This document shows, piece after piece, positions 42,958-64,000 of a DNA stretch of 64,000 bases (within the stretch, counting starts at the first letter, position 1; each line of letters opens with the position of its first letter). This stretch comes from Haplodiscus bocki. Its lineage: Eukaryota. The translations under genes were made by a program, and so were the position numbers. Location: NCBI GenBank assembly GCA_965655095.1, contig OZ296656.1:32798001-32862000 (forward strand), read 5' to 3'. The notes under the pieces were generated by a model that saw only the letters and a list, made by a program, of their open reading frames with translations, did not search any database and had not been told where the DNA came from.

Positions 42958-43470
42958 ATGACTAGTGGGCCCTTAATAGGCCACAGTGGCTACCCTGTTA
43001 CAAACCCTAATTCCATCGATTCCTGGGCATCCCCAAAGAACGCTGCAGCAGGTGCATTTTCGCTTGATGGGTCTGCATCTGTTGGTACCCCAAATATACC
43101 GTCGCCTCTCGCCCCAGATCAACAAAAACAGTTGTCAACACCCTCTTCTCACAAGAGTCCTAACCAACAACCAGGCTCAGGCTCAAATAATGGTGATTCT
43201 ATTACCATCAAATTGCAACTTTATGGCTTTCAGAACCCTGGATCGTTTACTTCTTCCAAATATAGTCCTGATTGTGTTTTGCGCAGTGAGATGTTAGAGC
43301 CTGCGAAGTACGCAACTATGCCGATAACGTTCAACAATGTGCCGTGTGATGCAGTCCAACAAAACGCAATTTTCTCCAAGTTTCTTACTTTGCCTGGACG
43401 CCAAGAGTTCTTACAGCTGCTGCAAAATAGTGAGCACTTTCTCATCTTCTCCCGTCCAGGCAAACCTTAA
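42958..43470 (+). CDS. Possible host coding exon, 170 aa, Ser/Pro/Gln/Asn-rich, product unknown
   Basis: Longest ORF in the host portion. It coincides with a GC-richer block, and all three minus frames contain stops. No recognisable domain. Confidence 0.3.
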   Translation: MTSGPLIGHSGYPVTNPNSIDSWASPKNAAAGAFSLDGSASVGTPNIPSPLAPDQQKQLSTPSSHKSPNQQPGSGSNNGDSITIKLQLYGFQNPGSFTSSKYSPDCVLRSEMLEPAKYATMPITFNNVPCDAVQQNAIFSKFLTLPGRQEFLQLLQNSEHFLIFSRPGKP

Positions 43471-47110: not shown

Positions 47111-48672
47111 GCGAGTTCCTGGGACCAAGTGAGTCTGACATGTTTTGAGCATGAAAGATAGGACTTTGAACGTTGGTAAAACGTTTTTAACGCCAGCTAT
47201 CTTAAAAAAGTCAATTGAACGTTAAACTGTCAGGCGAGATACTTTGAATTTTCACCGATCTCTTGTTGTGGAATATTCAATATGTGGAATATTCAATAAT
47301 TTTTCAGCCGTCTCTGCGAGTATATCCAAAGCTCAGCCTCGCCTGTGTTAATATATATGCGTTTCGGTAAATTTGAGGAAAGCCGAAGGCTCTGAAGAAC
47401 TTTGAATTGCGTCGACCTAATGCAATTTTTTTCCAAAAGTAGCAAAGCTGTTGAGAAGCTGAGTGGAGACATATAGATCATCACAGAAGCAGTGAGTTTG
47501 TGCAAATTATTATGTTTCCGATTTTCTAACATTGCAGGACGCACAGATGAGGATTACATTTCGACATTTTCTTTTCCTTTCAAAATTTGTCGAAACTGGT
47601 AAACTTTGAAACCTTTCGCGATAACTACTTTTTACATTTGCCGAGTTTTACATTATCCCCAACTACTTCTCTGAACATATTGCAGCTATACCAAACAAAA
47701 CCTTTATACGGCTAGTTCCCGCAAGGTTGAAAAGCTTCGGGAGCGGCGCTACTTGGAGCAATCCCAGCTTGTTCAAAAAGAAACTCTACTGGGTTCCAAT
47801 TGTTCCAATATAAATGTTTTCAACGCGATACCAATTCAATCTTTCCTCACGCTGCAAACCAGGTGTGTGAGAGCTATTTTTTAGATCACTGAATTCGTTG
47901 TCGAAATCACGAGTTTTTTTCATTACCTTGAAAAGTTTTTTGATTTTCGTGATTAAAAGAATTAAATAGATTAGTGGGTTTTTTTGTCCAGTTCTGTCAG
48001 TGGCAATTATTTATGCAGAGGGAATTTCAGGAACTCTATAGACTATGTGGGAAACCTGGCAGTCCAATAAATTGTTATGTGTCTTTCGGAGTTTTTGGGA
48101 ATTTGTTACGTGATTCCGAAAAAGGGTAACATCCCCGATAGTACTTGATGCTCGCGCTTTCTTGGATATTGGCAAAGGGTCGGGTTATCTCGAAAAGTTT
48201 TAATCAGAAAAAAATGTACTTCATTATTATTAGTGGGAAAATTTGTTTGACAGTGTCGAATTACGTCGGTGGGAGGAGCCTTTTCGTGTTTTGCAAATTT
48301 TGGGCTCTTCAGTTAAGATGAGACGCTTTTCGATGAATTTTTGCAAGTTGCTGTGAAAATTAGAACTAATCAAAAGCATGAAAGCGTCTTGAGAGAAAAA
48401 TAGTCACCTTAATAGACGGTCATCAATTAAAAGTAGATATAAATCACTAAAAATTATGCCGCCGACCGCTAGTTCACTGCATCGCCTAAAAGCGGAATCG
48501 AAGCTCATTTCCAAACCGAGCTTTTCCAAAAAAAAGGGGGTAGGGGGAGAGGTAGAGGGAGGGAGGGAAGTTAACAGAAAAGATGCAAAATTGGTTCAAA
48601 GAAACCCTAATATGACGGGCCCTCTAACGTTATGGAATGGAGTTAAACGTTATTCGTTGTCGCCGCGATATA

Positions 48673-49446
48673 CAGTAGTGATTTTAATTAATGCGACTCA
48701 GCAATTTTGATAAGCTTTACAAAATCCCAAGTGGTGAAGTAAATATTTGGAGATCAGAGTAAACAACGGTACTCTGAGAAAGCTCATCAAAAGGGCTACG
48801 ACATGGTTGTTTTATTTGCGAAAACAAGTACTTCAAAAGGGTAGAAAATTGCGTCCCAAAGTTGAGCAAATAAACTATGCAAGCATTGCGAATAACGACT
48901 AATTTTGGCAGTTTTTGTAAGAAATCTTGACAATGACACAAGATAGCAAGAAACAAATTACATAAATTGTTAGTTTTGGTTATTCCTCCGAGCGTTTATA
49001 TTTAACACTTTTTTCACAACTTCGAATTTTCAGAAGAAATTGCAAAAAGTAAAAGTATAATTTTAACATCCTATTTTAATACATTGATTTTCAAATTTAA
49101 TAGATTCAAGATAAGTTTTCAAGTAGTTTTTGAAAACTTTTCCGCCGACAGATGATATCAGCCGTTGGAGAAACATCAGAGGCATCTATTGAAGAAATCA
49201 AATTCCATTATCAATTTTTTAAAGTTACGAAATTCTCAAAAGAATGGAAAATTTGGCCAAAAACGCATTCTCTAATTTTTGCTCTATTATTTGGAAATTT
49301 TTCAAACAAACACCATTATAATTTCCTGAAAATTCTAAGAATATTTTGTTTCTGGTATTTTTGTCCAAAATGATTATTCCCGAAGTTATTCGTGTTTAAA
49401 GTTGACTTATGCATTAAAGTTGTCGCATTAATTAAAATCACTACTG
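48673..49446 (+). mobile_element. Tc1/mariner-type MITE, copy 3 (~774 bp)
   Basis: TA|CAGTAGTGATTTTAATTAATGCGAC ... GTCGCATTAATTAAAATCACTACTG|GA. Colinear with 4841-5605. Confidence 0.9.
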
Positions 49447-49625
49447 GAACTCAAATTCACTTCCAATGTTTCAAGAGTAAAACAGATTGCAGCAGCAGTC
49501 TATAGCTTTCAGCGGTGTTAGTTGCAGTTGCTTAAACATGATGCTTTTTAAGTTTTAGAAGCGAAGGTCATTTTTGCACTGAAGTCTTCTTATGGTTGAA
49601 CAAATTGTTGAAAGTTGTGTTATTT

Positions 49626-49945
49626 CGGGTCTTTTCCGTTTCTCCCCCCCCCCCAGCCCTACTGACAAAATTATTATTTCCCCCCCTAGCTGATATGCTC
49701 AGCTGAGCAGTATGGTTCAAGTTTCTGCTTAATAAAGTTATTGCAAATACCTGTTTGTTTATTTTAACTAGCTTTAGCGAGCAGTCAGCTTCTTGGAAGG
49801 TACTTGAGATTTGTGAATTGTGTGCACTGTCTACTGACTCGCGAAAGATGTATTTAGTGAATAAAATACATGTACACTGGTAGCAGCAGCCACAGCTTCG
49901 ACTGGGGGGAAATAATCCGCCTGGGGAAGAAACGGAAAAGACCCG
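49626..49945. mobile_element. 320-bp MITE with 18-bp perfect TIRs and a 6-bp TSD
   Basis: TTATTT|CGGGTCTTTTCCGTTTCT ... AGAAACGGAAAAGACCCG|TTATTT, with additional subterminal inverted attatttccccc/gggggaaataat. Confidence 0.8.
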
Positions 49946-50262
49946 TTATTTCTATCGACATTTGCAAACATTAAAAAGTAAAATCTTGCCGGAAAAAATT
50001 AAATTTTGCGGCACATGTAAAACAAAAGAAAAACAAGTCTTAAGCCATGGAGGTGCTCCCCGAATTTATTTAATTCACAGAAGCACAAGTGAAAAACAGA
50101 TCTGCTTCTTCAGTTTTGAGGTTCATTCTGTGTTTCCTTTAGAAAAATCACCGAGGAGAGTAGTGTATAAACTAGAATTTGACGCCAAAAGCCGTGGACG
50201 CAACGGAGGGGGAGTGTAAATTAGGTACCCCCTTCATCAATAAAATTTATTAAAAAGTATAC

Positions 50263-50475
50263 TATGTCAATGGGGGTACACAGGAATGAAAATTTAATTT
50301 TATAAAAACATTTTTTCATTTATATGTCAATGGGGGTACACAGGAAATGAAAATTTAATTGTTTAAAAATTTTTTTGAGTAGTCTTATCAAGGGGGGTAC
50401 ACAGGTGTGAAAATTCAATTTTGTAAAAAATATTTTGCGTGGTATTATCAGTGGTAGTACACAGGAAGAAATTCA
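50263..50475 (+). repeat. Subterminal 60-61-bp tandem repeats (4 copies), probably within the Polinton TIR
   Basis: tcaatgggggtacacagg at 50267 and 50327, tcaaggggggtacacagg at ~50388, tcagtggtagtacacagg at ~50448. Inverted core gtaccccc at 50225. Confidence 0.85.
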
Positions 50476-50513
50476 TCCATATAAAAAGAGCAGGTGGTTA
50501 TTAAATTATATAA

Positions 50514-50984
50514 TTACATACAATTTTTGATCCATGTCTAACATGCAAAGTGAAAAGGATTATTTCTATCATTACAATGTGTTTGTACATAATCACGATT
50601 TTGAGAAAGTTTTTTAAAAAATTGTCGATGCATTATTGGAATTCGATGTTTTAGATAATAACTTATGTTTATATATCGTTGATGTGATAATATTTTTATT
50701 GTTAGTTTGTTTATTTGATTCAATATAAAACCTCTTTGTCGAGCAATAGTTAATTTTTTGTTTAATTCATACAAACCCAAGCTTTCATCAGAAATTGTCA
50801 TATTAATTATTTCATTATTTGTGATTTTTGTAAGTTTAATATCATATATACAAACATATTAAAATGTATGAAAAAATTTTTTGTGACAATCTCTATAACA
50901 ACCATCTATTTTAGAATCTATTTTAGTAATGAGTGGGTTATCAAATTTATATTCTTTTACAACATATAATTCGTTTTCATTCAT
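50514..50984 (-). pseudogene. Disrupted Polinton accessory ORF (~150 aa), function unknown
   Basis: TAAATG start at 50984 (MNENELYVVKEYKFDNP...) is in frame with the listed 50538-50801 ORF. In-frame TAA at 50859-50861. TAG at 50538-50540 may also be premature (frame continues TWIKNCM to TAA at 50514). Confidence 0.65.
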
Positions 50985-51039
50985 TTATTGGTAGCAAATT
51001 TATTGAAATAAAAAATGTTTTTCAATAAAATTATGATTT

Positions 51040-54000
51040 TCAATTCCATGGTATACTTTCAGTTTCATTTATATAACATCGTTTATCATCGAATATAGAT
51101 AATGTTGATTTTTTTACTTCTTGAAGAACCATTTCATGATTAATTGATCTTATAATATAATTATTACATTCTTTTTGATATTCTTTACCAAATAAACAAT
51201 TGTAATATTCTTCAAATTTAATATGTTTTGATTGAGATTTCGAATTACCTTTTATTTTATTTTTATTTTCATTATTAGTTTTACATTTAAACGAATAAGC
51301 TTTTGATCTCAAACAAACAAATTCATCTATAATAACATTTTTAGGAGTCTCTATTTTGAATTTACCAACAACTTTCTTGTTTTTCTCACTAAATAGTTCA
51401 TGGTTTTGATCTAGATTACTAAAATCGAATATATCTTCTAAATTTTTTAAGTCTTTGATAATGTCTTTTGTTTTCATACTCAAAAACATGCCATCGGTAT
51501 CAATATAATGTAATTGTAATTTTTCTTGTCCAAAATATGGTTGTAATGTATCATAATATGTTTCATACATATGTAATTTACTTAATTCCAAAATACTAAA
51601 ACCAACATATATAGCTTTATCCATAACGATTTCATTTTTTTAATATGTGAAGCTATAATAGTTTTCATATGTTTTTTGTATACCATTAAATGTTAACTTT
51701 GATTGTTGATTAACAATTTTTTTAATATTATCTTTTTTAATTAATTCTAGGTTCAATCGATTCCTAATGTTTTCTAAAAATTTACCAAAAGCAGCATTAA
51801 CAAGCAATTTAAAGAAGTCTTTTTCGAAGTCATTTTTAGCTTTGTTTCGTTTTTGTGTATTAAAACTAATATAACCTTCCAACCATCTGCTTTGTTTAAA
51901 TGATATTATTTCATGAATTTTTTCGACTACCATACCATGTCTTACATAAAATTTTAACATCCTATAATGAATCAGATACTTCTTTTTATCAGTCGAATCA
52001 CATATTAACTTTTTAGATTTTGTATAATTTTCCGGTTTTATAGTATTCATATATTCATTATATTTATTTGGATCTATTTTTTTTTCTGGACAAAACGGAA
52101 AATACTTGGTTTTTTGTTTTATATCATCAGGATATTTTAGATCGACTTCAACAAAATAACCAATGTCTGAATCATCTGGTGTATTTAAAATTTCATCTAA
52201 CCAATTCCAATACTTATCAGGACTACCATGCCACATTTCAATTTCATCATAAGGTAAAACTTGACTCATTGAAAAACCATATAAATTAGTAGCATCTATA
52301 TATGTTATCTTATTATTTTCATCTGATTTAACATATCTATCACCCATAACTGAGCTTATGCCGCCACGTATATTATTCTCTATTAACAAAATCAGATCTT
52401 TATCTTGTAGTGCTTGTAATTTAATATTAGTATATTTCAAAGCACATTGATAAGTATAACCTGGTAAACTCAAACAATATAAAGGATTAATTTTATATTC
52501 TTTGGTAGATACTTTTACAAATTTTTCAAAAACATCAGCTAATAAAATAACATCACTTTTACATTATAATTCAGTTAGTTCTCTTCCATCTTTGATATTA
52601 AATAGTTTAATAATTTCTTTAGTTCTTTCTATTTCTTCATCATCAGGATAATCATTTTTTATTTTACTGAAGAAGTCCTCTTTTTTTAAATCATTAACAG
52701 AATTTTTATCATCATTGATACTATTGAAATATTGATATGGATATGCTAGTTTTTTATTTAAATATTGCCATTTGTCAGGAAATTCTTTTTTCAAAATTTT
52801 AAAATCATCCTCATCCAAATTTTTAACTAATTTATCCAAACTCTCTGATAAGAAGCGATAACTATCAATAAATCTAATACAACCATATTTAACTGTAATA
52901 TATTCTTCGTTGGTTTTAGGAATAATTTTAAATTTTACTTTATCTTTTTTTAAATCAACCAACTTTTTAAAAAACATATGACAATCGTAATTACTAAAAT
53001 TATGGAATGCAAATGGTATAAAATTACTATCTTTTTGGTTTACGTTTATATTACAAATATTATGAGCTGGACCTCTGTATTTTCCTGTTAAATGACAGTG
53101 ATCACGAACTTTATCTGATAATATTTCTTTTTCACAAAATCGACAGATGTTATTATTTTTAAAATCTTCATCTTCTTTTGTCATAATGATATCTTTTTTA
53201 GTGTTTTTAAAATAGAAAGCCATTTTATTTTCTAATTTTATAACTTCTTTAACAAACCAATCAACATTATCATAACCTAACGGAGATTCGTATTAATCAC
53301 TCTTTAAAACGTCTTCCAATTCAGATATTATATAATAACCTTTAAGTACAGGATTTTGTTTGTATATGTTGGTTGTTTTGTTTCCTATCTTAGTATTATC
53401 TTTTTCATTATCAGCTTCGAAATCGGCAATAATCCTAAAATATAATGGATTTTTATGAAAGTGTTTTTTCCAATAAAGATGAGATTCATTTGATGTTCTA
53501 ATAGTACATATATTATCATCTCCACATTTTTCTTTATGATTTATTAAAGCATTTTCACACGTATAAGAATTCAAACAACGTCTACATACAAAACTTTTGT
53601 GATGATCTCCTAAAAATACATGTAATTTTTTAATGAGAGCATAATGATTTTTTTTAGATTAATAAGTCAATAACATTATCTGATTCGTTTTTACTGATTT
53701 CGATGGGTATCAAATTATGTTTCCATTTATCTCCATCTTGATAGAAATTTAATTCGTATATATTTACAGATAAATTGTTTAATTCATTAAATTTGTGAAC
53801 ATCACCACATTTAAAACCGTTTGTAAAATCGAAATTTTGAAAGTTTAATTCATTAAAATATTGTATATAATTGTTTACTCTTGATGGATGAGTATTTTCA
53901 CAAGGATGAAGACTAGCTAAAATTGACCAAATAAAACAATATTTATCATTATTTTGAACATTTAAGATAGCAGATGTTCTCAATGGAATTTTAACATAAG

Positions 54001-54703
54001 AAGTACCGTTTAATTCTTCAGTTTTGTAGAATGATATTTTCATTGAATTAATTTTATCAAATATCCAACCAGAATCCTTTGTTTCTTGTATCTGAATTTG
54101 ATGTTCTAATTGAGATCTAACGTCAATATTATCAATATCAGATTCAGTAAAATTATGATTAATTTTTAAGTTTATATATAATTCAATTTCATTATCTCGT
54201 TGATCTTCTTCATTAATTTTATAAAAGCTCGCTGAAAATAATGTGTGATATTTAAATTTATATTGATTTATTAATCGAGAATAAATAACAGATAATTCTT
54301 TTATGATTTTATTAATATATCTATACTCAACGCCAACGTCTGGATATTTACATGTAATAACCAAAATAGAATTTGCATGACTAATATTATGACTTTCTAA
54401 ATTAATTTTGAAACCATTTTTTAAATTTTCATCAATAAAATAATATGGGTTAATCATTATTTTAGCTAATTCTTTATCATCCAATTTAATTTTTTCTCTT
54501 GCTAATTGTTTCAATGTTTTAGGGTTATATACTTTTTATATCTTTTTCTTAATAGGTGTTTTTTCTTTCTTAAAAAACCATTCTGGTATAATCATTTCAT
54601 TTCGGTTTATATTTTCTAAATGTTTTTTGCTTCTCAAATGCTTTTGCATAGATGCTCTGTGTACATCAGCATTACAAATTTCACATGTGCGGCTGTTTTC
54701 CAT
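51040..54703 (-). pseudogene. polB: Protein-primed family B DNA polymerase (pPolB), ~1220 codons, disrupted at five sites
   Basis: Exo motifs IIADFEA, FHNFSNYD and L*CKSDV; polymerase motifs YIDATNLYG, KLLVNAAFGK and YIDTDG; KG motif. ATG at 54703. In-frame TAA at 54536, 53293, 52564 and 51640, plus a stop with frameshift in an A-run at ~53654. Joins listed ORFs 53654-54514, 53293-53574, 52564-53223, 51640-52473 and 51040-51624. Confidence 0.95.
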
Positions 54704-54772
54704 TTTGCGTCCTATTTATATAGTATTATTTTATTGAAATAAAAACACTTCAATTAAAAATATAATAAATAA

Positions 54773-55069
54773 ATGGAGAGTAAAATTTGCACTCAATGTA
54801 ATTTTGAAAAACATATCAACAACTTTTACAAAAAATATTCAGAATGCAAAGACTGTAACATCAAACGAGGTGTAAAACGTTACCATGATAATAAAAATAA
54901 AATATCAATGCAACAAAAAATATATTATGAAAAAAATAGAGATAAACTTTTACAGAAACAAAATGATTATAGCAAAAAAAGAAGCACAGATTATAAGGAA
55001 TTACAAAGATCCTATGGTGAATTACAAAATAAATTAAAAGCATTGGAAGAAAAATTAAAGAATGTATAA
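54773..55069 (+). CDS. 98-aa C4 zinc-finger plus basic coiled-coil protein
   Basis: CTQC-x15-CKDC followed by a Lys/Tyr-rich helical tail. TAAATG start, divergent from pPolB. Confidence 0.8.
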   Translation: MESKICTQCNFEKHINNFYKKYSECKDCNIKRGVKRYHDNKNKISMQQKIYYEKNRDKLLQKQNDYSKKRSTDYKELQRSYGELQNKLKALEEKLKNV

Positions 55070-55085
55070 GTACAATATTTTAATC

Positions 55086-55153
55086 AAAATTGTACTCAAA
55101 TTGTACTCATATACTTGTACTTATATTTAGTATACATACTTGTATAAGAGTAT
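55086..55153 (+). promoter_or_regulatory. Intergenic module upstream of the integrase; inverted copies at 61406-61532
   Basis: aaaattgtactcaaattgtactcatatac...ttagtatacatacttgtataagagtat matches the reverse complement of 61464-61532 and 61406-61459. All copies have the same orientation relative to the downstream gene. Confidence 0.6.
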
Positions 55154-55180
55154 GATGTTTTGTATGTTTACAAAATATAA

Positions 55181-56035
55181 ATGACTCAGAAAAACATTAA
55201 AATATTTATAAACGAAATTTATTCCAAACCACCAAAACGAAACTATGCTACAAATAAAACAGACGTTTATTATATCGATGACATTTGGAGTTTAGACATT
55301 TTAGACTTAAAAGACTATGGTCCTGAAAACAATAGAGGTTACAGATATGTTCTTGTCGTCATAGACAATTTTAGTAAATTTGGTTGGACAATACCCCTAA
55401 AAAATAAAAATGCTCAAACAATAAAAGACTCTTTCGAAAATATTTTGATAAGCTCAAAAAGAAAACCAAATTTAATCGAAACAGACCATGGCAAAGAATT
55501 CTACAACAATTTTTTTCAAGATTTCTTAAATAAAAACAATATCACACTTTGTTCTAGAAACAGTTCATATGGTGCTGTTTTTGCAGAAAGATTTAATCGT
55601 ACTATCAGAGACCTTCTTAAAAAGATCGTTTTCGAACGAGGTGATGCAAATTGGACTGATGTATTACCTACAATAACAAAACAATATAATAATCGAATAC
55701 ATTCATCAACAAAACTGTCTCCAGAAGATGCTTCTTTAAAAAAGAATGAAGGATTCGTTTACAAAAACTTATTAGATAAACGTGATAAACTCAAACCAAA
55801 GTTTCAAATAAACGATCTTGTTAGAGTTGCTGACTTAAAGAAAACGTTTTCAAAAAGATACAACAAATTGGTCTTATAAATTATATAAAATTACAGAAAT
55901 AATCAATGATTCAATACCAAGTTATAAAATAAAAATTTACCAGAAAGATACAACGAGTCGTTATTAAAAAAGATTAATTTAACAATGAAAGAAAATAATA
56001 GTGTTATGAAAAAATTAAGACTTGATATTGTATAA
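55181..56035 (+). pseudogene. int: Retroviral-type (rve, DDE) integrase with two frameshifts in the C-terminal part; catalytic core open (55181-55879)
   Basis: WSLD, VIDNFSKFGW, IETDHGKEF, AERFNRTI and YNNRIHSS. After FSK the expected DTTNWSYKLYKITE continues in another frame (~55855). LPERYNE...KKLRLDIV* returns to the original frame after ~55930 and ends at TAA 56033-56035. Confidence 0.93.
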
Positions 56036-56110
56036 TTTAAACACCCACTCATATAATTGTATGTATACCTTAATATAATTACTCGTATATTTGTATGTGT
56101 TATGAATACT

Positions 56111-57361
56111 TTAACTTAAATCAAACATTCGTTGTCCGTCGCTGCTTATAGAAATTAGTTTGTTTGTTAAAACCAAAGCATAACCGTATATGCTAGCAGG
56201 GACTACTCCATCAAATTTAAATTCAACTTTTATTGGCTGAGAACTTTCAAAATTTTTTTGATATCGGATATCGAAAGCGTATATATTATAACCAATATTA
56301 TCACCATTTTTAGACGATCTAAAATCATCATCAGATATGTATGGTTGAAGAAGGTTATCTTTTGTTAGAGCTTTAAAAGCTTCTTTAATCTGTCCATAAC
56401 CTTGTGAATAATCATCATCGTTATAATTTAATAGAATTCCACTATCAGGGTACTTTTCTGTTCCGATAATGCATTGAGCTGATGTTACTAGAGGTCTATA
56501 AAAAGTGTCGTTGTTCAAATTTTGATCGTTTTGTCTATCATTTTGTTGAAAAGCTACAAATATCCATATAGGTACGTTAATACCTTCCTGAGTACCTAAT
56601 TCGAAAGTCCAAAGATTTTGAGTATTTACCTCTTTCATGAAAACAGATCTTTCAGGATAATGAAGTAGTGTTGGAGAGTTTTTCTTAATTTGAGTCATTA
56701 GTTTGTTATATTCTTCAAGATTTGGACTATAATGAGGCACATACCAATCAAGACTATTAATTTTAACTCTACCATTAGCAACTGCATTATCTTTATTCAA
56801 AACGGCGTTGTCTGTATTTCTTGTCAAGGTTAATTTGTATCCGAGACCGTAAGTCCCTTTTTCTTGGTGTTCGGCAAATCCAAAAATATCTTTTAGATGA
56901 ATTCTAATATGATATTTGCCTTTGATAGTTTTATTATTAGTTAATTCATTTTTTCTTCTTCCTCTACTACGATCAAAGCAAATAGATAAGTCGTCACTGT
57001 CTTTACTCGATGTTAAAAGTTTGTACATTAAACTAACAATATGAGCATGACTGATCTCTTCTAGGTGTTTGCCTGATGATGTTGTTAGCTTGTAATTAGA
57101 GAATGAAGCTATTGGACCCAAATTAACTAATCTAATATCATTAGCATCTACGTATCTGTTACTATTATCAGCTCGTAATACGTCAAAATTTATTTCAATA
57201 TAACTATTTAACAAAGAAATAACAGAATCTTTTCTTGGTATATTAATATATATTTGAGAATTAGCAGTGTTTATTGTAGATATTTCAGCTGGACTGTATC
57301 GTATATAATCACATTTCAGAATCCTTCTATCGACTTCATAATTTTCACTGAGTTTAAACAT
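56111..57361 (-). CDS. Major capsid protein (double jelly roll, Polinton PY type), 416 aa, uninterrupted
   Basis: Size, beta-strand-rich pattern, N-terminal YxPxx...IxIxI..D...L.SYIEI, VPHY linker, PIWIFVAFQ, KYP and IYAFDIRYQ...IKVEFKF resemble Polinton MCPs. Genomic context fits. Confidence 0.85.
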   Translation of the reverse strand: MFKLSENYEVDRRILKCDYIRYSPAEISTINTANSQIYINIPRKDSVISLLNSYIEINFDVLRADNSNRYVDANDIRLVNLGPIASFSNYKLTTSSGKHLEEISHAHIVSLMYKLLTSSKDSDDLSICFDRSRGRRKNELTNNKTIKGKYHIRIHLKDIFGFAEHQEKGTYGLGYKLTLTRNTDNAVLNKDNAVANGRVKINSLDWYVPHYSPNLEEYNKLMTQIKKNSPTLLHYPERSVFMKEVNTQNLWTFELGTQEGINVPIWIFVAFQQNDRQNDQNLNNDTFYRPLVTSAQCIIGTEKYPDSGILLNYNDDDYSQGYGQIKEAFKALTKDNLLQPYISDDDFRSSKNGDNIGYNIYAFDIRYQKNFESSQPIKVEFKFDGVVPASIYGYALVLTNKLISISSDGQRMFDLS

Positions 57362-57498
57362 TTATATATAAAAAAAATGTATACATACAATTATTTGAGT
57401 AATTATAGTTGACTATATGTACAATTATATTCTCATTTTATGTTACATACTATTATACTTGTACATATACTTATGTATGCTTACAATTATATGAGTAC

Positions 57499-58333
57499 TT
57501 ATAATAGATTACATTTAATTAAAATTTGCTTATGTTGTTTCTTAGATATACATTTATATTCTAATAATTTATCAATTATAGCAACAATTTCTTCATCAAT
57601 TAAATAAGATTTATTACCAGCATGTTTTTCTTGTAATAATAATTTCAACCTATCACACAATTCATTTGAATCAGATGATAGAAATATTGTTTTTGAAACA
57701 CCTGAAGCCATGATCAAGTAATCTAATCAATGAATTGTGTCTGACACTAGGTCTACCAGTACTTTTGGTATCATAGTTCATTTCTTTTGCAAATTCATAA
57801 ATTATTTTTCGATCTTGTTGATTAGGATGATCTACATTGAATTTATAATTTGTTATTACTTTCAAAAGATCTCCTTCTAGTTTAAAAGTTTTTTTACTAT
57901 CTCGAAAAGTTATCATATTACTAAATAAAGTAACTGGTATAGTTCCATGAATTAAAAAATCATTCAATTTAGTTGAATTAGGATCTTTTCTTAGTCTAAA
58001 TTGACTTTTGTTATCTTTTTTAAATACTTCAACAAGAGAAGTAGTTAGATAAGGGGCTATAATACCTTTATCATTCAATAATTCTAAAATTTTTTCGTTT
58101 AAATTCTCAATTGCTTTGTTGTTATTAATAGAATGTTCTGTAATAGTTTTTGTTATTTTTTCAGAAGTATTTTTCATTTCATCAGTCATTGTTTTAAAAA
58201 ATTTTTTTATATCTTCATGATAATTCTGTTCACCAAGCTTGTTTTGTAATCTAACTTCTTGTACTTGTTTTTGTAACGAGATTGCCTCATTTAATTTCTC
58301 TAAATCTTCTATATTTTTAATTGAATACAACAT
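57499..58333 (-). pseudogene. Conserved Polinton protein (~280 aa, coiled-coil N-terminus, C-terminal NELxxRLxLL..AGN motif) split by one frameshift
   Basis: ORF 57671-58333 and ORF 57499-57717 overlap at ~57712 (RLLD / IMASGV). SDSNELCDRLKLLLQEKHAGN resembles the DPNELxxRLxLL..AGN motif seen in many animal Polintons. Only the upstream ORF has a TAAATG start. Confidence 0.7.
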
Positions 58334-58414
58334 TTATTTTATTAAAAAAGTTATTCTTGTATACTTACACATATTCAAATATGAATATCATATTTACAAT
58401 TTGATAAGATTAAA

Positions 58415-58496
58415 TAATTGTATCACTTTTTAAGAATATGTAATTGAATCTAGAACCAGATGGTTTTATACGTATTTTTAAAAAGTGATACAATTA
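58415..58496. promoter_or_regulatory. 28-bp inverted repeat in the divergent intergenic region
   Basis: taattgtatcactttttaagaatatgta (58415-58442) and tacgtatttttaaaaagtgatacaatta (58469-58496), 2 mismatches. Confidence 0.65.
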
Positions 58497-58508
58497 TATA
58501 TACTATAA

Positions 58509-59240
58509 ATGAGTTCTATAATTAAAAAACTTAATACAAATTGTGTGTCGTGTAATGTTCTGTTAAACGATAAAAATTTGGTTAAAAATAGAAAAAAATG
58601 TAATAAATGTCTCAATAATATTAGGAATAAAAATAAAAAACCAATTATTAAACACGTATATGAAAACAATACTATGATAAAAACCGATAGAACGCTTATA
58701 ATCGGTAGATCAGGTTGTGGAAAGACATTTCTGATGTTATCACTATTAAAAGATAAGAATCCAGATGATGTTTATATAATCTGTAAAACAGACAATCAAT
58801 ATCCTTCAAATTTTCACAATCAATCTAGAGAGATATTACCCTTAGAAGATTATGGTAATAAAACTATTGTCTTTGATGATATGTTAGGATCGAAAGAAGC
58901 AAAAGATATTGATGCTTTTTTTACTCGTGGCCGTCATCAACACCTCAATATTTTTTATATCTCTCAATCATGGTATGAATTACCTAAAAACACTATTCGA
59001 AATAATTGTAGTAGAATTATGTTGTTTCCACAAACATTAAAGGATATAACTATGATTTGCAACGATATTTCAGGTTTACATATGAATTTTTCAGAATGGC
59101 GTGTTTTTTGTCGAGATGCATGGAAGAAAAAATATAATTATATTCAAATAGATAAAGATAAAGATCTAGATGATATGTATAGCATTAAAAACGTATCAGG
59201 TTTAGAGATTATAGCTATTCCAGAGACAGATGCTTTTTGA
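58509..59240 (+). CDS. A32/FtsK-HerA family DNA packaging ATPase with an N-terminal C4 zinc finger, 243 aa
   Basis: Walker A GRSGCGKT, Walker B IVFDD, TRGRH arginine motif, ISQ, IRNN. N-terminal CVSC-x15-CNKC. Confidence 0.93.
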   Translation: MSSIIKKLNTNCVSCNVLLNDKNLVKNRKKCNKCLNNIRNKNKKPIIKHVYENNTMIKTDRTLIIGRSGCGKTFLMLSLLKDKNPDDVYIICKTDNQYPSNFHNQSREILPLEDYGNKTIVFDDMLGSKEAKDIDAFFTRGRHQHLNIFYISQSWYELPKNTIRNNCSRIMLFPQTLKDITMICNDISGLHMNFSEWRVFCRDAWKKKYNYIQIDKDKDLDDMYSIKNVSGLEIIAIPETDAF

Positions 59241-59313
59241 AAAAACTATGTTCTAGGTTGAAATTTTAATTTATTATGACTAAAAAAGATTAATTTTATT
59301 TTTAAATTCATGT

Positions 59314-59847
59314 TTATAAAAAAGATTCATTTTTGTTTTCATTAACATATTTAGTAAAAATATTACATAGACTTTCATATTCGGTTTTATCAATTACATT
59401 ATCTTGTAATGATTTTCTGTATAATTTATCAAAAGATTTAATAGTATTTTGATCTCTTTCATATTGTTTTTTATATTTATTGTATTTGTTTATGATTAAT
59501 TTGTGTAATATTTTGTTACCTAATGATAGGCCGCAAGCAATTCCAGCTGATATAGGCAAAACAATTAAACCAATACCAGTAACCGATAGAGTTATCGAAG
59601 TTGATGTTGCTCCGATGATAACGACGCTGTCTACCGATTCTAAAACTGCATTCAAAGTTTTATAATTTTTGTATTTCTTTTTTGATTTATGGTTTTTGTC
59701 TTTGAAATATGTTATCATTTCTTTAATGTTATTGATGTGGTTATTAAAACTGTTAACATCGTTTATTTTCTTTTCTAATCGTTTTTCTAAATCAATATTT
59801 TCTAATAATGGTGCACTGGGATACAATCTTTCGGTTTTTGTTTCCAT
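59314..59847 (-). CDS. 177-aa putative membrane-active protein (hydrophobic hairpin between basic coiled coils; similar in plan to adintovirus GasderminX-type proteins)
   Basis: Uncharged Gly-rich stretch VVIIGATSTSITLSVTGIGLIVLPISAGIACGLSLG, flanking KKKYK helices, C-terminal LQDNVIDKTEY, N-terminal LYPSAPL. Confidence 0.7.
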   Translation of the reverse strand: METKTERLYPSAPLLENIDLEKRLEKKINDVNSFNNHINNIKEMITYFKDKNHKSKKKYKNYKTLNAVLESVDSVVIIGATSTSITLSVTGIGLIVLPISAGIACGLSLGNKILHKLIINKYNKYKKQYERDQNTIKSFDKLYRKSLQDNVIDKTEYESLCNIFTKYVNENKNESFL

Positions 59848-59861
59848 TTATATAGTATAAT

Positions 59862-60260
59862 TTATACAAATTTACCGAGGTATAAACCTTTACCTGTATT
59901 GTAAAACGTTATCAATTCTGGTAACGTTGATAAAGCCTGTTTGGAATTTCGAGAAGCAGCTGCTGTAGCTATTTTTGCTGTTAAATCTAGAGCTCGTCCA
60001 GGATTACTTAATACGTTTCTTGCCATCTTTTTTGACACATTTAATCCTTTTTTACTAAGATTTTTGAAAAAGTCGCCAAGGCCTTCCGCTTTTATTGTAT
60101 CATCAGAAACTGTCATAGATTTTTTGCGGTTACAAATTGAACAAACGCCAATTAATACTTTGCTGCCTTTACTTGTTATACTACCATAAATTTTTACTGT
60201 TGCAGATCGATGCCTGCCTCCAACACAGTAACTGTCTGTTTTAAATTTATTGAATGTCAT
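59862..60260 (-). CDS. 132-aa basic virion core/entry protein candidate (Zn-ribbon-like N-terminus, amphipathic helix, GKGLYL tail)
   Basis: YCVGGRH...CSIC; IKAE-GLGDFFKNLSKKGLNVSKKMARNVL amphipathic pattern; TGKGLYL. TAAATG start. Confidence 0.7.
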   Translation of the reverse strand: MTFNKFKTDSYCVGGRHRSATVKIYGSITSKGSKVLIGVCSICNRKKSMTVSDDTIKAEGLGDFFKNLSKKGLNVSKKMARNVLSNPGRALDLTAKIATAAASRNSKQALSTLPELITFYNTGKGLYLGKFV

Positions 60261-60295
60261 TTAATATACAAAAAAGTGTGTGTAAACATGTTATA

Positions 60296-61390
60296 TTAAA
60301 TTTTAATCATCTGTAAAGTAAAAGTCAACGTTTCGTGATTAAAATCAACTTCTTCATTATTTTCATCTTCTAGATAAAATGTTATAGTATTCAAAACAGA
60401 TTTGTTTATTTTTTTATAATGAATCGTTTCAGGTTCTGAAAATACTTTGTAACCAGGTTTTTTATCTAATACAAAACTATATAATATTGATTGTCTCAAA
60501 CCATTGACTACTGAACCATCGATAACATCACATTTCAAGTGTATTTTATTAGTGTTACTTAGGTTTACAATTTTTTGACTAATATACTTATTATAGTGTT
60601 TGTAATCCCAACCTGGGGTAAAACCTAAGATAGTACTAAAGAACGATTTTTCATCAAATCTTACGGCTAAAATTCCAGATTGTACAACCAATTTAGTTTT
60701 CATGTTAATATCATCATATTCAATAACAATAACATTGCAATCACCTGGACAATCTGATTGGAGAATGCTAAAAAGAGCTTCGGAAATATCTTTAAAACTA
60801 TAAATGCCTGGATCTAATTCATAAGTAATAAAACTTGAATTGTATTCATCTAAAACCAATTTAATATCATCTTCAACCAGATCAACTTCTGTTCTGAGAA
60901 AACTTTCGAAATCTTGAAACACAGAACTTGTATATCTCGCTAAAATATCCATATATCCATCATCATTCATTCTTTTTGTTACTTGTTCATTATATTCTTT
61001 AATAATAATCGGAGCTATTATTTCATCTTGTAAATCTTCCACAGTAATATCTTCAAGATCCAAGTCTCTTTCAATCTCATCTCTGACTTTTGTATATGAA
61101 ATACCACCAGCTTTTTCATCAGGAAATTTGTAAAGTTCGAATTTGTTATTTTCTTCGGTTATATTATAAATAGAATTGTATACTACTAAGTCTACTAAAC
61201 CGATCATCCAATCTCCTTTGATTTGAATTGGTGGTTTGAAATGGAATGATTCTCTTGATTTATTCATTTTGAATTCCAAGGTCTCATCTGCTTTTCTGTG
61301 AGTCTGTTCAATTAGTGTTTCACAATTTTTAGTTATTGAAAGTAATAAATCTTCTGTTTGAGTTTTAGGTCTGATCATATTTAAATTCAT
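60296..61390 (-). CDS. Minor capsid protein (penton, Polinton PX type), paralog 1, 364 aa
   Basis: FKPPI..W.IGL, NITEENNKF, PGIY, TILGF, KIHLKCD.IDGS.VNG, ILYSF, PGYK, YKKINK and VDFNHET.TFTL: single jelly-roll penton pattern. Confidence 0.85.
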   Translation of the reverse strand: MNLNMIRPKTQTEDLLLSITKNCETLIEQTHRKADETLEFKMNKSRESFHFKPPIQIKGDWMIGLVDLVVYNSIYNITEENNKFELYKFPDEKAGGISYTKVRDEIERDLDLEDITVEDLQDEIIAPIIIKEYNEQVTKRMNDDGYMDILARYTSSVFQDFESFLRTEVDLVEDDIKLVLDEYNSSFITYELDPGIYSFKDISEALFSILQSDCPGDCNVIVIEYDDINMKTKLVVQSGILAVRFDEKSFFSTILGFTPGWDYKHYNKYISQKIVNLSNTNKIHLKCDVIDGSVVNGLRQSILYSFVLDKKPGYKVFSEPETIHYKKINKSVLNTITFYLEDENNEEVDFNHETLTFTLQMIKI

Positions 61391-61405
61391 TCAAAACTTA
61401 CAAAA

Positions 61406-61532
61406 ATACTCTTATACAAGTTTGTATACTAAATATAATTACACGTATAAGAGTACAATAAAGATACTCTTATACAAGTATGTATACTAATTATAAACAC
61501 ACGTATATGTGTACAATTTTGAGTACAATTTT
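61406..61532 (-). promoter_or_regulatory. Two tandem copies of the intergenic module between the pentons
   Basis: atactcttatacaagt(t/a)tgtatactaa at 61406 and 61464. Reverse complement of 55086-55153. Confidence 0.6.
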
Positions 61533-62602
61533 TATATTTTAATTAACTGACAGGTGAATGATATTGTTTCATTATGAAAATCTACTGGTTTGTAATCATC
61601 ATCTTCAAAATAAAATGTTGAATGAGACAAAACAGATTTATTTATTTTTTTAAAAAGTTTAATTCTGGGTTCATTATATATCCTATGACCAGGAGGTGAA
61701 CTTAAAGCAAAACTATATAAAATAGGTTCTCTTATACCGTTAACGATAGATCCTTGTATACAACCACATTTCAAATGAATTTTATCGATTCCTGTAATGT
61801 TAATTGGCTTATCGCTTTTGTATGATCCTGCTATAATTTGATAATGACTATCTATATCATCTAGTGGATAAGATCGTGATTGTGTAAAACCTAAAATTGT
61901 ATAAAAGAAAGATCTTTCAGTAAATATTAAAGTTTGATTAATTTTTAAATTTGATTTTAATCTAATATCCTCTATTGTAATGTTTACTTTTACATTATTG
62001 GGTAAAATATGTTTTAAAGTATTATTTAAATCGACAACTTCATAAATACCTGGATTCAAACTATAACCTGTTCTTTTTGTAGGAATATATTTCAAGTCTA
62101 ATATATCCATAATTTCATAATAAGATAATCTCATTCTGTAAACTAAATCTTCAAGATCATTGTATTTAGCATTTTTTAATTCTTGAACTATCTCATATTT
62201 TTGATTATCAAAATCTGATAATTTATATTCATTGTCACCTATTTTTATTTTATTTCCTCTTTTTTTAACTTCTTCTACATGTAATTCAAGAGATTTGAGC
62301 TCTAATATTTTATTTAGATCGTTAATAGTTTTTTCATCAGATTTGTTTTGGTAATGACCTCGTATAATAATTGAAAAACTATTGTTTTCGTTGGTGATGT
62401 TAAAGACTGAATTTGTACATTCGAATGAACTCACAGCTAGTAACCATTTACCTTCTTCAACTAAATTTATTGGAGGATTGAATGAAAACGTTTGCATTTG
62501 CTTATTCATTTTAAATTCCAAAGTCTCTTGTGGTTTCGTTTTTGTTTGTTCAATCAGAGTATCAGTATGTTTTTTAATCAAAAGTAACAGTTCATTATTC
62601 AT
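61532..62602 (-). CDS. Minor capsid protein (penton), paralog 2, 356 aa
   Basis: Colinear with paralog 1: TLIEQT..ETLEFKMNK, FNPPI, NITNENNSF, PGIY, TILGFT, KIHLKC, ILYSF, KKINKSVL, VDF.NET, Q.IKI end. Confidence 0.85.
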   Translation of the reverse strand: MNNELLLLIKKHTDTLIEQTKTKPQETLEFKMNKQMQTFSFNPPINLVEEGKWLLAVSSFECTNSVFNITNENNSFSIIIRGHYQNKSDEKTINDLNKILELKSLELHVEEVKKRGNKIKIGDNEYKLSDFDNQKYEIVQELKNAKYNDLEDLVYRMRLSYYEIMDILDLKYIPTKRTGYSLNPGIYEVVDLNNTLKHILPNNVKVNITIEDIRLKSNLKINQTLIFTERSFFYTILGFTQSRSYPLDDIDSHYQIIAGSYKSDKPINITGIDKIHLKCGCIQGSIVNGIREPILYSFALSSPPGHRIYNEPRIKLFKKINKSVLSHSTFYFEDDDYKPVDFHNETISFTCQLIKI

Positions 62603-62925
62603 TTATAATATCAACATTGTATAATTACACGTATTCAAATATAAATATTCTTATACTTGTATGAATAAGTTAACTTATTTGTAATCGCGAGTGATCAACT
62701 TAGTATAAGTACACCTATTCATATAGGAATAATAAAGTAATTATAAGTACACATATAATTGTAAGTATATCCCTAGTATAAGTACAAATATATTTGTATC
62801 AAGTACTTTTAAATAATATTAATTATTGTTTATTTACACTTATTGAAATATGAATAACCCTATAATTATAAATATACTTGTATGAATAATTTAACAAACT
62901 TTATATATTCTTATACATGTACATA

Positions 62926-63123
62926 CTATTTTGTAAGTACTTTAAATCCCGATGCTGTCACTTTTTTAAGGAATTTTTTATTGTTTTGCGAAATATTTCT
63001 GTTTTGTTTACGAGGAAGTGAACCAGCTTTTATTGTTTTTGATTTAATCTCTTTTTCTTTTGTTTTTTCAGTTATTGGAGTATATCTAACACTGTTATCA
63101 ATAGTTATTTTTCGTAATGTCAT
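62926..63123 (-). CDS. 65-aa highly basic protein, candidate DNA-condensing core protein
   Basis: Lys/Arg-rich, TAAATG start, directly downstream of the protease, C-terminal VTASGF. Confidence 0.6.
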   Translation of the reverse strand: MTLRKITIDNSVRYTPITEKTKEKEIKSKTIKAGSLPRKQNRNISQNNKKFLKKVTASGFKVLTK

Positions 63124-63149
63124 TTATTTTAAAGGAAACATTAACGTTT

Positions 63150-63575
63150 TCATATCATTTGATAGTATAAATTTAAAACAGCAATTTTAAAATCAATACC
63201 TAACACTTTTGTCAAATATATTATATATAAACAATAAAAAGCACAATAAGAGTCTTGCTTACTTGTTAGACCTTGTATTTTGTATTCTGAATATAAACAA
63301 TATCCATTTCGTTTTATGATAAATTTAGATAGTTTCTTTGGAGGTGTAATCCCATATGAATCAAAATAGCTTCCGTGATTATATAAAACCCAATGGGTTC
63401 CTTTTGATGGATGTAAATTTACAATGCCAATATCAGATTCAAAAGGTTCGTCTCTTAAATAGATCCCTATATCATTCAAAGACAAAGATGAAAGGATCTG
63501 TTGAATTTTTATATTTGATGTTGCTTTGTTTTTCAATTTGTGTTTTTTAATAAAATCATTGAACATCAGTATCAT
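63150..63575 (-). CDS. Adenain/Ulp1-like (clan CE) maturation cysteine protease, 141 aa
   Basis: IVNL..GTHWV (His), YFDSYG (Asp), IQ (oxyanion Gln) and SYCAFYC (Cys) in the canonical order. Confidence 0.92.
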   Translation of the reverse strand: MILMFNDFIKKHKLKNKATSNIKIQQILSSLSLNDIGIYLRDEPFESDIGIVNLHPSKGTHWVLYNHGSYFDSYGITPPKKLSKFIIKRNGYCLYSEYKIQGLTSKQDSYCAFYCLYIIYLTKVLGIDFKIAVLNLYYQMI

Positions 63576-63866
63576 TTAAACACTCATATAATTGTATGTA
63601 TAAATATACATATAATTGTAAGTATTACTCATATAATTATATGTATCAATACCCATATAAGTGTATGTATAACTGTATGTATCCGTGTGTTTTAAATGTA
63701 ATTATTTATTTTCTTCTGATAAATCAAGAAACTTATTCATATAATTGTAAGTATACCCCAGTATAAGTACTCGTGTAATTATATTATCACAATTGTGAAA
63801 CATATGTATAAATACTCGTATAAATGTAAGTATACCTTAGTATAAGTACTCCTATAATTGTAAGTA

Positions 63867-64000
63867 TCATGAATCTCGTCTTGTTGTAAACAAAAAATCT
63901 TCTAAAACTTTATCAGCATTAGCATAATTGTCGAATAAACCTTTGTCATATAATATTTGTATCGTCGTTTTCACAGCTCTTTGAATTAAAATATCTTCTA
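63867..64000 (-). CDS. C-terminal end of a further Polinton ORF starting beyond the window
   Basis: Open frame EDILIQRAVKTTIQILYDKGLFDNYANADKVLEDFLFTTRRDS* ending at TGA 63867-63869. Confidence 0.6.
   Translation of the reverse strand, partial: EDILIQRAVKTTIQILYDKGLFDNYANADKVLEDFLFTTRRDS

What the first reader, a model, noticed from the sequence alone, without database searches (positions are those of the whole stretch)
50159..64000. Endogenous adintovirus-like Polinton with a complete virion gene set
pPolB, integrase, MCP, two pentons, packaging ATPase, protease and at least seven accessory ORFs lie within 13.8 kb. The class is established. This gene order and complement (two pentons, Zn-finger ATPase, TAAATG starts) may define a lineage not yet described; novelty cannot be verified without a search.
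Basis: partly seen in the sequence, partly recalled or inferred. Interest (0 to 1): 0.7.

Follow-up and report, generated by a model that had tools for sequence, protein, structure and literature searches.

The report
Decayed two-penton Polinton provirus copy
This is a young but already broken copy of a known kind of integrating DNA virus (Polinton/Maverick) from a large unnamed family, unusual mainly in carrying two versions of the capsid corner protein.

Summary
The genes are real, but 'complete' overstates it. A Maverick-Polinton (adintovirus) starts at 50159 with the canonical AGTAGT end; GC falls from 36.7% to 25.4%. It runs off the window, so the right inverted repeat and target duplication are untestable. 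pPolB, RVE integrase, double-jelly-roll capsid and A32 ATPase match profiles; penton 1 folds like the mavirus penton; penton 2 is a 37%-identical paralogue; the protease rests on motifs only. This copy cannot replicate itself: pPolB has four stops and a frameshift, the integrase tail two frameshifts. The seven virion-side ORFs are open, but the two compared carry as many private substitutions as the polymerase, as neutral decay predicts. The family is large: the best 120 capsid hits are all 87-94% identical and unnamed, and 48 of 120 polymerase hits are full-length. TAAATG precedes 11 of 13 starts and intergenic DNA carries an element-specific repeat motif. Two pentons are reported in Trimcap-B polinton-like viruses; I found no report for animal Polintons. 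Host and Alpha/Beta class are unresolved. Verdict: new variant of a known kind, modest interest.

The parts
50153..50158 (.). Candidate left copy of a 6-bp target-site duplication (GAGGAG); cannot be verified
   Evidence: Read from the sequence; the right end lies beyond the window
50159..50164 (+). Left terminus, (AGT)2 end motif
   Evidence: coincides with the GC step; the motif is canonical for Mavericks (PMC8097293). AGTAGT alone occurs 23 times on the + strand of the window, so the context is what counts
50267..50471 (.). Subterminal 60-bp tandem repeat, 3.4 copies, within the presumed left inverted repeat
50538..50984 (-). ORF148, accessory, one internal stop; no family match
   Evidence: break read by eye, not checked against relatives
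51040..54703 (-). Protein-primed DNA polymerase B (Zn finger, terminal-protein region, vOTU motifs, EndoVII/HNH insertion, exonuclease, polymerase). Pseudogene: TAA stops at 54536-8, 53293-5, 52564-6, 51640-2 and one frameshift near 53654-53703
   Evidence: two HSPs in different frames against 1222-aa P0243, 90% identity; PF03175, PF02945
54773..55069 (+). ORF98, CxxC-x-CxxC Zn ribbon plus basic coiled tail; similar to the N-terminal part of phage endonucleases
   Evidence: PHROG 2340 E 4e-7, PHROG 1035 E 3e-5
55181..56035 (+). RVE (DDE) integrase; core open to 55879 with D-D-E motifs; C-terminal part broken by two frameshifts between about 55850 and 55970
   Evidence: PF00665 E 9e-12; motifs; three-frame reading, not checked against relatives
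56111..57361 (-). [quoted passage not shown]
   Evidence: PF21738 E 2e-10; Atlas DJR cluster 0.97, weak recognition; 106 of 120 relatives are 416 aa; the AF2 model failed, pLDDT 31.6
57499..58333 (-). Accessory gene of about 290 codons, split by one frameshift near 57700 into 220-aa and 75-aa ORFs; its C-terminal motif resembles a conserved Polinton gene (recalled, not tested)
   Evidence: no significant family match
58509..59240 (+). A32/FtsK-type packaging ATPase with an N-terminal four-Cys Zn finger
   Evidence: Pox_A32 above cut-off when trimmed; Walker A, Walker B and RGRH motifs; PHROG 2666 E 2e-12
59314..59847 (-). ORF177, membrane protein with a hydrophobic stretch from about residue 83 to 111; weak SLATT-like match
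   Evidence: KD19 maximum 2.06; NF033634 E 0.002, below cut-off; SLATT labels occur on adintovirus maps
59862..60260 (-). ORF132, basic (+16) with an amphipathic helix; candidate core or membrane-active virion protein (inference)
   Evidence: Hydrophobic moment 1.7; no family match
60296..61390 (-). Penton 1, 364 aa: N-terminal helix, single jelly roll, inserted domain with a helical addition (about residues 100-185)
   Evidence: AF2 pLDDT 80.9; mavirus penton 6g41 E 8e-9; VIA Z 12.4 (PBCV-1 chain, rmsd 2.9, 127 aligned) and 11.9 (mavirus, rmsd 11.0, 228 aligned)
61532..62602 (-). Penton 2, 356 aa, tandem paralogue of penton 1
   Evidence: 37% identity; has its own orthologue cluster P0394, 356 aa, 83%; separate clade 100/99
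62926..63123 (-). ORF65, small basic ORF
   Evidence: no family match
63150..63575 (-). Putative adenain/Ulp1-type maturation protease, 141 aa
   Evidence: Motifs GTHW 59, FDSYG 71, Q101, CAFYC 111; no profile hit
63867..64000 (-). 3' end (43 aa) of a further ORF that runs off the window: the element continues
   Evidence: no family match
55064..63870 (.). Dispersed intergenic family of quasi-palindromic, purine-pyrimidine-alternating units (6/12/24-bp period), clustered at about 55070-55160, 56040-56100, 57390-57500, 58355-58500, 61400-61530, 62610-62925, 63577-63870
   Evidence: 41 of 42 element hits of a 12-mer matrix lie in 1,582 intergenic bases (both strands counted, matrix trained on them), 2 hits in 50,158 flank bases; likelihood 457 against 91-129 in 5 dinucleotide shuffles (run with fewer seeds)

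Best explanation
A recently inserted, now inactive copy of a high-copy Maverick-Polinton (adintovirus, class Polintoviricetes) family. How the family works: the pPolB polyprotein frees its terminal protein by its vOTU protease and copies the linear genome from the ends; the RVE integrase inserts it into host DNA with a 6-bp duplication; the DJR capsid protein builds the facets, pentons close the vertices, the A32 ATPase packages the DNA and the cysteine protease matures the particle. These steps are inferred from family knowledge; the domains are shown here. The two pentons come from an old tandem duplication and are kept across the family. Most likely both are virion vertex proteins whose exposed inserted domains have diverged, either as mixed pentamers or as two vertex types (inferred). 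TAAATG and the intergenic repeats are probably the element's own initiator and regulator-binding sites (inferred). This copy has lost polymerase and full-length integrase (shown) and is decaying neutrally; its open virion ORFs have not yet been hit.
For: Hallmark genes; canonical terminus; vOTU Cys and His motifs in this copy and in 47 of 48 full-length relatives; both motif-C aspartates in 46 of 48. Breaks mapped against a natural 1222-aa relative. The stops are not a code change: the relatives' commonest residues at the four columns are of three kinds, and TAA ends 7 of 12 genes checked. Private substitutions at conserved columns: MCP 6 of 370, penton 1 5 of 281, polymerase 9 of 683, one rate, as neutral decay predicts. 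Family size: 2,672 MCP clusters at E<=1e-3, best 120 all 87-94%; 3,374 penton hits, best 119 non-self 81-91%; 48 of 120 pPolB hits of 1,200 aa or more. Most vertebrate Mavericks are likewise degraded (PMC8097293).
Against: All nine breaks avoid the seven virion-side ORFs (1,829 of about 3,937 codons), P about 0.004 after the fact; 3.1 stops and 3.5 frameshifts would be expected there. Only three of the seven were length-checked against relatives (P 0.047 for those). No second terminus or target duplication could be seen. The protease is motif-only and the MCP fold failed. No virion has been observed for any Maverick-Polinton (10.64898/2026.06.19.733378).
Confidence: 0.86

Rival explanations
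1. The virion module of this copy is being kept by selection (host domestication, or supply of particles in trans to other copies) while the replication module decays.
For: 0 of 9 breaks fall in the seven virion-side ORFs, P about 0.004; regulatory motifs are in place.
Against: Private missense rates in MCP (1.6%) and penton 1 (1.8%) are no lower than in the dead polymerase (1.3%). The test is after the fact and the window was picked for its open capsid genes. Open MCPs are common in the family: 106 of 120 are 416 aa, under a length filter.
Confidence: 0.07
2. The element is intact and active; the breaks are sequencing or assembly errors.
For: Four breaks are frameshifts in AT-rich DNA; pPolB has 24 A/T runs of 6 or more.
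Against: Five breaks are in-frame stops, not indels, and they come with 1.3-1.8% private missense change.
Confidence: 0.04
3. The family is helper-dependent like a virophage: its genes are transcribed by the RNA polymerase of a co-infecting poxvirus-like or other giant virus. This concerns the family's lifestyle and is compatible with this copy being dead.
For: TAAATG at 11 of 13 starts contains TAAAT, the initiator of vaccinia intermediate and late genes; yeast pGKL elements use TAAAN (PMC6211774). No RNA polymerase gene lies in the part seen. Polinton-like viruses associated with entomopoxviruses exist (PMC11296320).
Against: The motif precedes replication genes as well as virion genes, so it is not a late-gene mark. 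It may be an AT-rich translation-start context. No helper virus is known here, and there are no transcript data.
Confidence: 0.15
4. Penton 2 (or penton 1) is not a vertex protein any more but a spike, cement or decoy protein, or the two are alternatives used in different particles.
For: The paralogues are about 0.8 substitutions per site apart and only about 30% alike in the inserted region for many relatives; BFVD lists two penton-like proteins in Tetraselmis viridis virus S1 (ranks 1 and 2).
Against: Both keep the N-terminal helix and the C-terminal jelly-roll strands.
Confidence: 0.25

Closest known systems
Maverick-Polintons / adintoviruses (Polintoviricetes, Amphintovirales, Eupolintoviridae; renaming in PMC12451622)
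   Same: vOTU-pPolB, RVE integrase, DJR MCP, penton, A32 ATPase, cysteine protease, (AGT)2 end, SLATT-like accessory gene, integrated and mostly degraded copies.
   Different: Two tandem pentons of about 360 aa; the Polinton pentons in Krupovic 2014 Fig. S2 run to about 250 aa where shown, and Table S1 (72 Polintons) marks none as duplicated, though it scores presence only. Gene order differs from the two-module vertebrate order (PMC8097293): here integrase is divergent from pPolB, and the ATPase sits between MCP and the pentons. The ATPase carries an N-terminal Zn finger. No PLA2X is seen in the part available.
Polinton-4_NV / Nasonia / Tribolium-type pentons (Mavpol2-like virion module)
   Same: By eye, both pentons follow the P-4_NV_PX row of Krupovic 2014 Fig. 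S2 (N-terminal helix, then the same strand motifs) rather than the Ciona, urchin and Xenopus rows. No score or tree with these references could be run.
   Different: An added helical segment of about 100 aa inside the inserted domain, and the duplication.
Trimcap-B polinton-like viruses; Tetraselmis viridis virus S1
   Same: Two penton genes are reported in several Trimcap-B members (10.64898/2026.06.19.733378); two S1 proteins are the top BFVD matches to penton 1.
   Different: Protist viruses of another class; PLVs mostly lack RVE integrase and protease (PMC4642659); Trimcap has three MCPs; sequence identity 12-13%.
Mavirus virophage
   Same: Closest solved penton (6g41); also encodes pPolB and RVE integrase and integrates.
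   Different: 8% identity; the MCP here matches the PF21738 type; no helper virus is known here.

Membership tests
Maverick-Polinton (Polintoviricetes) | [quoted passage not shown] | tested here: met
   PF03175 above cut-off on the X-read-through; exonuclease and polymerase motifs; broken in this copy, full length in relatives
Maverick-Polinton (Polintoviricetes) | Retrovirus-like RVE integrase | tested here: met
   PF00665 E 9e-12; D-D-E motifs
Maverick-Polinton (Polintoviricetes) | [quoted passage not shown] | tested here: met
   PF21738 40.6 bits, cut-off 27; the structure model failed, so this rests on the profile
Maverick-Polinton (Polintoviricetes) | Single-jelly-roll penton | tested here: met
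   for penton 1; penton 2 by paralogy
Maverick-Polinton (Polintoviricetes) | A32/FtsK packaging ATPase | tested here: met
   Pox_A32 25.0 bits, cut-off 22.8, on the trimmed protein; below cut-off untrimmed
Maverick-Polinton (Polintoviricetes) | Adenain/Ulp1 maturation protease | tested here: inconclusive
   Motif order fits; no profile or PDB hit; not folded
Maverick-Polinton (Polintoviricetes) | (AGT)2 or (AG)3 end motif | tested here: met
   AGTAGT at 50159, left end only
Maverick-Polinton (Polintoviricetes) | [quoted passage not shown] | not testable with these tools
   Right end beyond 64000; the left 362 bases have no inverted partner in the window
Adintovirus (Eupolintoviridae) | OTU-like domain N-terminal to PolB | tested here: met
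   Cys and His motifs in this copy and in 47 of 48 relatives; motif-level evidence only
Adintovirus (Eupolintoviridae) | Animal host | tested here: inconclusive
   The flank has no Pfam hit in 121 ORFs and no Rfam hit; relatives are unnamed
Alphadintovirus versus Betadintovirus | Archetypal PF03175 PolB (Alpha) or divergent PolB (Beta) | tested here: inconclusive
   PF03175 is weak (55-61 bits; absent in 4 of 5 full-length relatives scanned), which leans to the divergent type; the reference sequences could not be reached
Alphadintovirus versus Betadintovirus | PLA2X (Alpha module) or GasderminX/Cupiennin (Beta module) | tested here: inconclusive
   No such match in the part seen; the element is cut; ORF132 is only basic and amphipathic
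'Intact' Maverick (criteria of PMC8097293) | All core ORFs open | tested here: not met
   pPolB and integrase broken
Polinton-like viruses (Aquintoviricetes) | Usually no RVE integrase and no maturation protease (PMC4642659) | tested here: not met
   RVE integrase present
Virophages (Virophaviricetes) | Virophage-type MCP, ATPase and protease by dedicated HMMs (PMC9952930) | not testable with these tools
   Those profiles are not available; no virophage family appeared for the MCP in Pfam

The most novel reading that the evidence does not exclude
An undescribed, massively expanded and still active animal Polinton lineage whose particles use two different pentons, each with a lineage-specific helical spike domain, at the vertices, and whose genes run from a poxvirus-like TAAAT initiator plus an element-specific palindromic regulatory repeat, possibly read by a helper giant virus. 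With hundreds of near-identical capsid genes and dozens of full-length polymerases, its host would be a strong place to look for the first Maverick-Polinton virion.
Probability: 0.15. Interest if true: 0.7.

Novelty: new variant of a known kind. Interest (0 to 1): 0.36.

Why it matters
This copy alone is an ordinary viral fossil. The family is of specialist interest for two reasons. First, no Maverick-Polinton virion has been observed, and a family with many full-length capsid and polymerase genes points to a host in which natural particles could be sought. Second, a penton duplication kept across an animal Polinton family, and a near-universal TAAATG start with its own intergenic repeat, bear on how these capsids recognise cells and on whose polymerase transcribes them. 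I found neither described for animal Polintons.

Tried and rejected
TAA read as an amino acid: rejected; the relatives' commonest residues at the four stop columns are of three kinds, and TAA ends 7 of 12 genes checked. ORF148 as a stand-alone copy of the pPolB terminal-protein region: rejected; 2.8 bits against up to 11.7 for 1,000 shuffles. MCP fold: failed, pLDDT 31.6, the alignment held only 87-94% relatives, so no fold search was run for it; its profile found nothing in PDB. Penton 1 with penton 2 complex: no verdict, score 0.05 against a mark of 0.34, alignments not used; this says nothing either way. Protease, polymerase and ATPase sequence searches of PDB: nothing informative; protease against phage genomes: no match. 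Penton profile against PDB: best E 0.002, to an unrelated helical protein. Atlas searches: viral 'hypothetical' clusters, recognition below the reliable mark. Names and accession numbers of the relatives could not be looked up, so their sources are unknown. The representative search with penton 1 returned mostly fragments of the same family (144 of 150 closer to penton 1) and no named outgroup, so the duplication is undated and the tree (38 of 38 rows, C-terminal part only) is unrooted. An early note that the polymerase is Alpha-class was withdrawn. Strict motif counts of 18 and 21 of 48 'intact' polymerases were artefacts of a pattern that missed a DCD variant. A capture-recapture estimate from shared contig lengths (2,400-4,800) is too crude to use. 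Literature: TAAATG with polinton gave 3 papers, none on the subject by title or abstract; the two-penton phrases gave 11 papers, 10 listed, none on animal Polintons in the listing or the passages read; acoel with Maverick or Polinton gave only repeat tables. The viral and metagenome contig collections, Repbase and Dfam were not searched, so gene order in other copies and any existing annotation are unchecked.


Full report
Observation. The element starts at 50159 with AGTAGT. GC falls from 0.367 in the 50,158-base flank to 0.254 inside, and 86% of the inside is coding. (AGT)2 is the commonest 5' end of vertebrate Mavericks (PMC8097293, passages). The hexamer alone occurs 23 times on the + strand of the window, so the GC step and the genes are what make this one a terminus. 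A 60-bp repeat of 3.4 copies follows at 50267-50471. The window ends inside an ORF, and the left end has no inverted partner in the window, so size, inverted repeats and target duplication are unchecked.

Gene identities. Integrase: PF00665, E 9e-12. MCP: PF21738, 40.6 bits against a cut-off of 27. ATPase: Pox_A32 above cut-off only after the first 47 residues are left off; those residues hold a CxxC-x-CxxC finger. Polymerase read with X at its stops: PF03175 at 54.8 bits and an EndoVII/HNH domain; vOTU, exonuclease and polymerase motifs are present (my ExoIII pattern falls on a break and did not match). Nuclease insertions in Polinton polymerases are known (PMC10748475 and PMC11071308, passages). 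Penton 1 folded from a 113-row alignment at pLDDT 80.9. Its best PDB match is the mavirus penton (E 8e-9), followed by adenovirus and Sputnik pentons; VIA gives Z 12.4 and 11.9 for a PBCV-1 chain and mavirus. TM-scores are only about 0.3 because of the large insertion. Penton 2 is 37% identical and was not folded. The protease has no hit in any library tried and is assigned from its His-Asp-Gln-Cys motif order and recalled family knowledge. The MCP model failed. ORF177 is hydrophobic with a sub-threshold SLATT match; SLATT labels occur on adintovirus maps. ORF132 is basic and amphipathic.

State of this copy. A natural 1222-aa relative aligns to 54703-51043 in two frames at 90% identity: one frameshift and four TAA stops. 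These are not a code change. Three-frame reading shows two frameshifts in the integrase tail, one in the gene at 57499-58333 and one stop in ORF148; these four were not checked against relatives. MCP and both pentons have the length of their relatives. Private substitutions at conserved columns are 6 of 370 (MCP, 120 relatives), 5 of 281 (penton 1, 119) and 9 of 683 (polymerase, 30 closest picked from 120). One rate of 1.3-1.8% across live-looking and dead genes points to a young insertion under neutral decay. Against this, none of nine breaks falls in the seven virion-side ORFs (P about 0.004; about 0.05 for the three checked). The test is after the fact, and the window was chosen for those genes, so I give domestication 0.07.

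The family. MCP has 2,672 hits among 4,780 candidates; the best 120 are 87-94% identical, all from ENA and unnamed. Penton 1 has 3,374 among 6,655; the best 119 non-self hits are 81-91%. The polymerase has 1,898 among the 8,000 scored; 48 of the best 120 are 1,200 aa or longer, in three groups at 80% identity; 47 of 48 keep each vOTU motif and 46 of 48 both motif-C aspartates. How many of the lower hits belong to this family is unknown, and the searches filter by length. Five contig lengths are shared between the MCP and penton lists, weak support for linkage elsewhere. Penton 2 has its own orthologue cluster (P0394, 83%, 356 aa) and its own clade, about 0.8 substitutions per site from the penton 1 clade, with further penton lineages of 230-345 aa beside them. 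So the duplication is old and not private to this copy; its date is unknown for lack of named outgroups. Large expansions are known elsewhere: 1,676 and 1,724 elements in two corals (PMC11131425, passages).

Host. Not established. The flank has no Pfam hit in 121 of 127 ORFs of 70 aa or more (six in the satellite were left out) and no Rfam hit. Its 116-bp satellite reminded me of acoel flatworm repeats; that is recall and untested. For context only: Mavericks make up 4.5% of one acoel assembly (PMC6451197, passages), and 28 xenacoelomorph pPolB1 rows from two accessions are tabulated by Jeong et al. (supplement rows). Neither source describes gene content.

Regulatory signals. TAAATG precedes 11 of 13 starts, against 19 of 517 other ATGs in the element (P about 1e-14; 5e-8 if the background were 0.15). 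TAAAT is the initiator of vaccinia intermediate and late genes, and TAAAN that of yeast pGKL elements (PMC6211774, passages). Here it marks replication and virion genes alike, so it may be only a start context. Intergenic DNA is built from quasi-palindromic purine-pyrimidine units: 41 of 42 element hits are intergenic and 2 lie in the flank, with the matrix trained on the intergenic DNA; likelihood 457 against at most 129 in five shuffles. The units occur between convergent as well as divergent genes, so they are not simply promoters. A binding-site array for an element-encoded regulator (ORF98 is a candidate) is my guess.

Mechanism. Shown: the domains, the terminus, the breaks, the family size. 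Inferred from family knowledge (PMC11071308, PMC4028283, PMC8502044): vOTU releases the terminal protein, pPolB copies the linear genome from its ends, the integrase inserts it, MCP and pentons form an icosahedral shell, the ATPase fills it and the protease matures it. Both pentons keep the jelly-roll strands and differ most in the inserted domain, which suggests two vertex proteins with different exposed parts. This copy cannot replicate or, probably, integrate by itself.

Comparison and novelty. It meets the testable hallmarks of Maverick-Polintons (family now Eupolintoviridae; PMC12451622, passages) and fails the 'intact' standard. Alpha or Beta is unresolved: PF03175 is weak, which leans to Starrett's divergent type, while the pentons look by eye like Polinton-4_NV PX (Krupovic 2014 Fig. 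S2, part 1 of 2). Table S1 of that paper (read whole) marks no duplicated penton but records presence only. Two pentons are reported in Trimcap-B polinton-like viruses (10.64898/2026.06.19.733378, passages), and two Tetraselmis virus S1 proteins head the BFVD list. Searches for the feature in animal Polintons found nothing. Also seen as passages only: PMC4642659, PMC7805220, PMC9952930, PMC11296320, 10.64898/2026.10.13.758929. Of PMC8502044 I saw part 2 of 6, passages and part 1 of the supplement. Its sequence file, the .doc FASTA of PMC4028283 and the bioRxiv supplements could not be read and may bear on classification and on the two-penton claim. Repbase, Dfam and viral contig sets were not searched.

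Verdict. A real but ordinary fossil of a known class, from an apparently unnamed high-copy family with a conserved penton duplication and a distinctive regulatory signature. New variant of a known kind; interest 0.36.

Noticed in passing
window 15520-16861: Satellite of about 11 copies of a 116-bp unit, 67% matches, with a 241-bp higher-order pair. It resembles repeats I recall from acoel genomes; untested.
   Followed up: no
window 3953-4540 and 5020-5607; 48667-49457: A 588-nt inverted pair (94%) whose sequence recurs about 44 kb away at 85-93%: a dispersed non-coding repeat, probably a MITE or foldback element; one copy lies about 700 bases left of the Polinton.
   Followed up: no
window 49626-49648 and 49923-49945: A 23-bp inverted pair (96%) enclosing about 320 bases just left of the Polinton; possibly a small MITE.
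   Followed up: no
window 42949-43470 (+): A 173-aa Ser/Pro/Asn-rich open frame that reads like a host exon; no Pfam match.
   Followed up: partly
window 11899-11950 and 12090-12141: A 52-nt inverted pair (90%) 139 bases apart.
   Followed up: no
P0270-P0360 (polymerase relatives): 23 of 48 full-length relatives carry Cys in place of Thr in polymerase motif C (DCD in 22), across several length classes: a lineage-wide variant rather than decay.
   Followed up: partly
window 55098-55153 and 61406-61519: The intergenic repeat upstream of the integrase is a 91-93% inverted match to two tandem 58-bp units between the pentons, suggesting recent copying or conversion among regulatory blocks.
   Followed up: partly
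P0385, P0387, P0423, P0425, P0477, P0511: Further penton lineages of 230-345 aa, roughly equidistant from pentons 1 and 2; they may belong to sister families or to a third paralogue.
   Followed up: partly
PDB 9l35: A weak hit (E 0.35) of the penton profile to an uncharacterised protein C45G9.5; not significant and absent from the fold-search rows shown.
   Followed up: no
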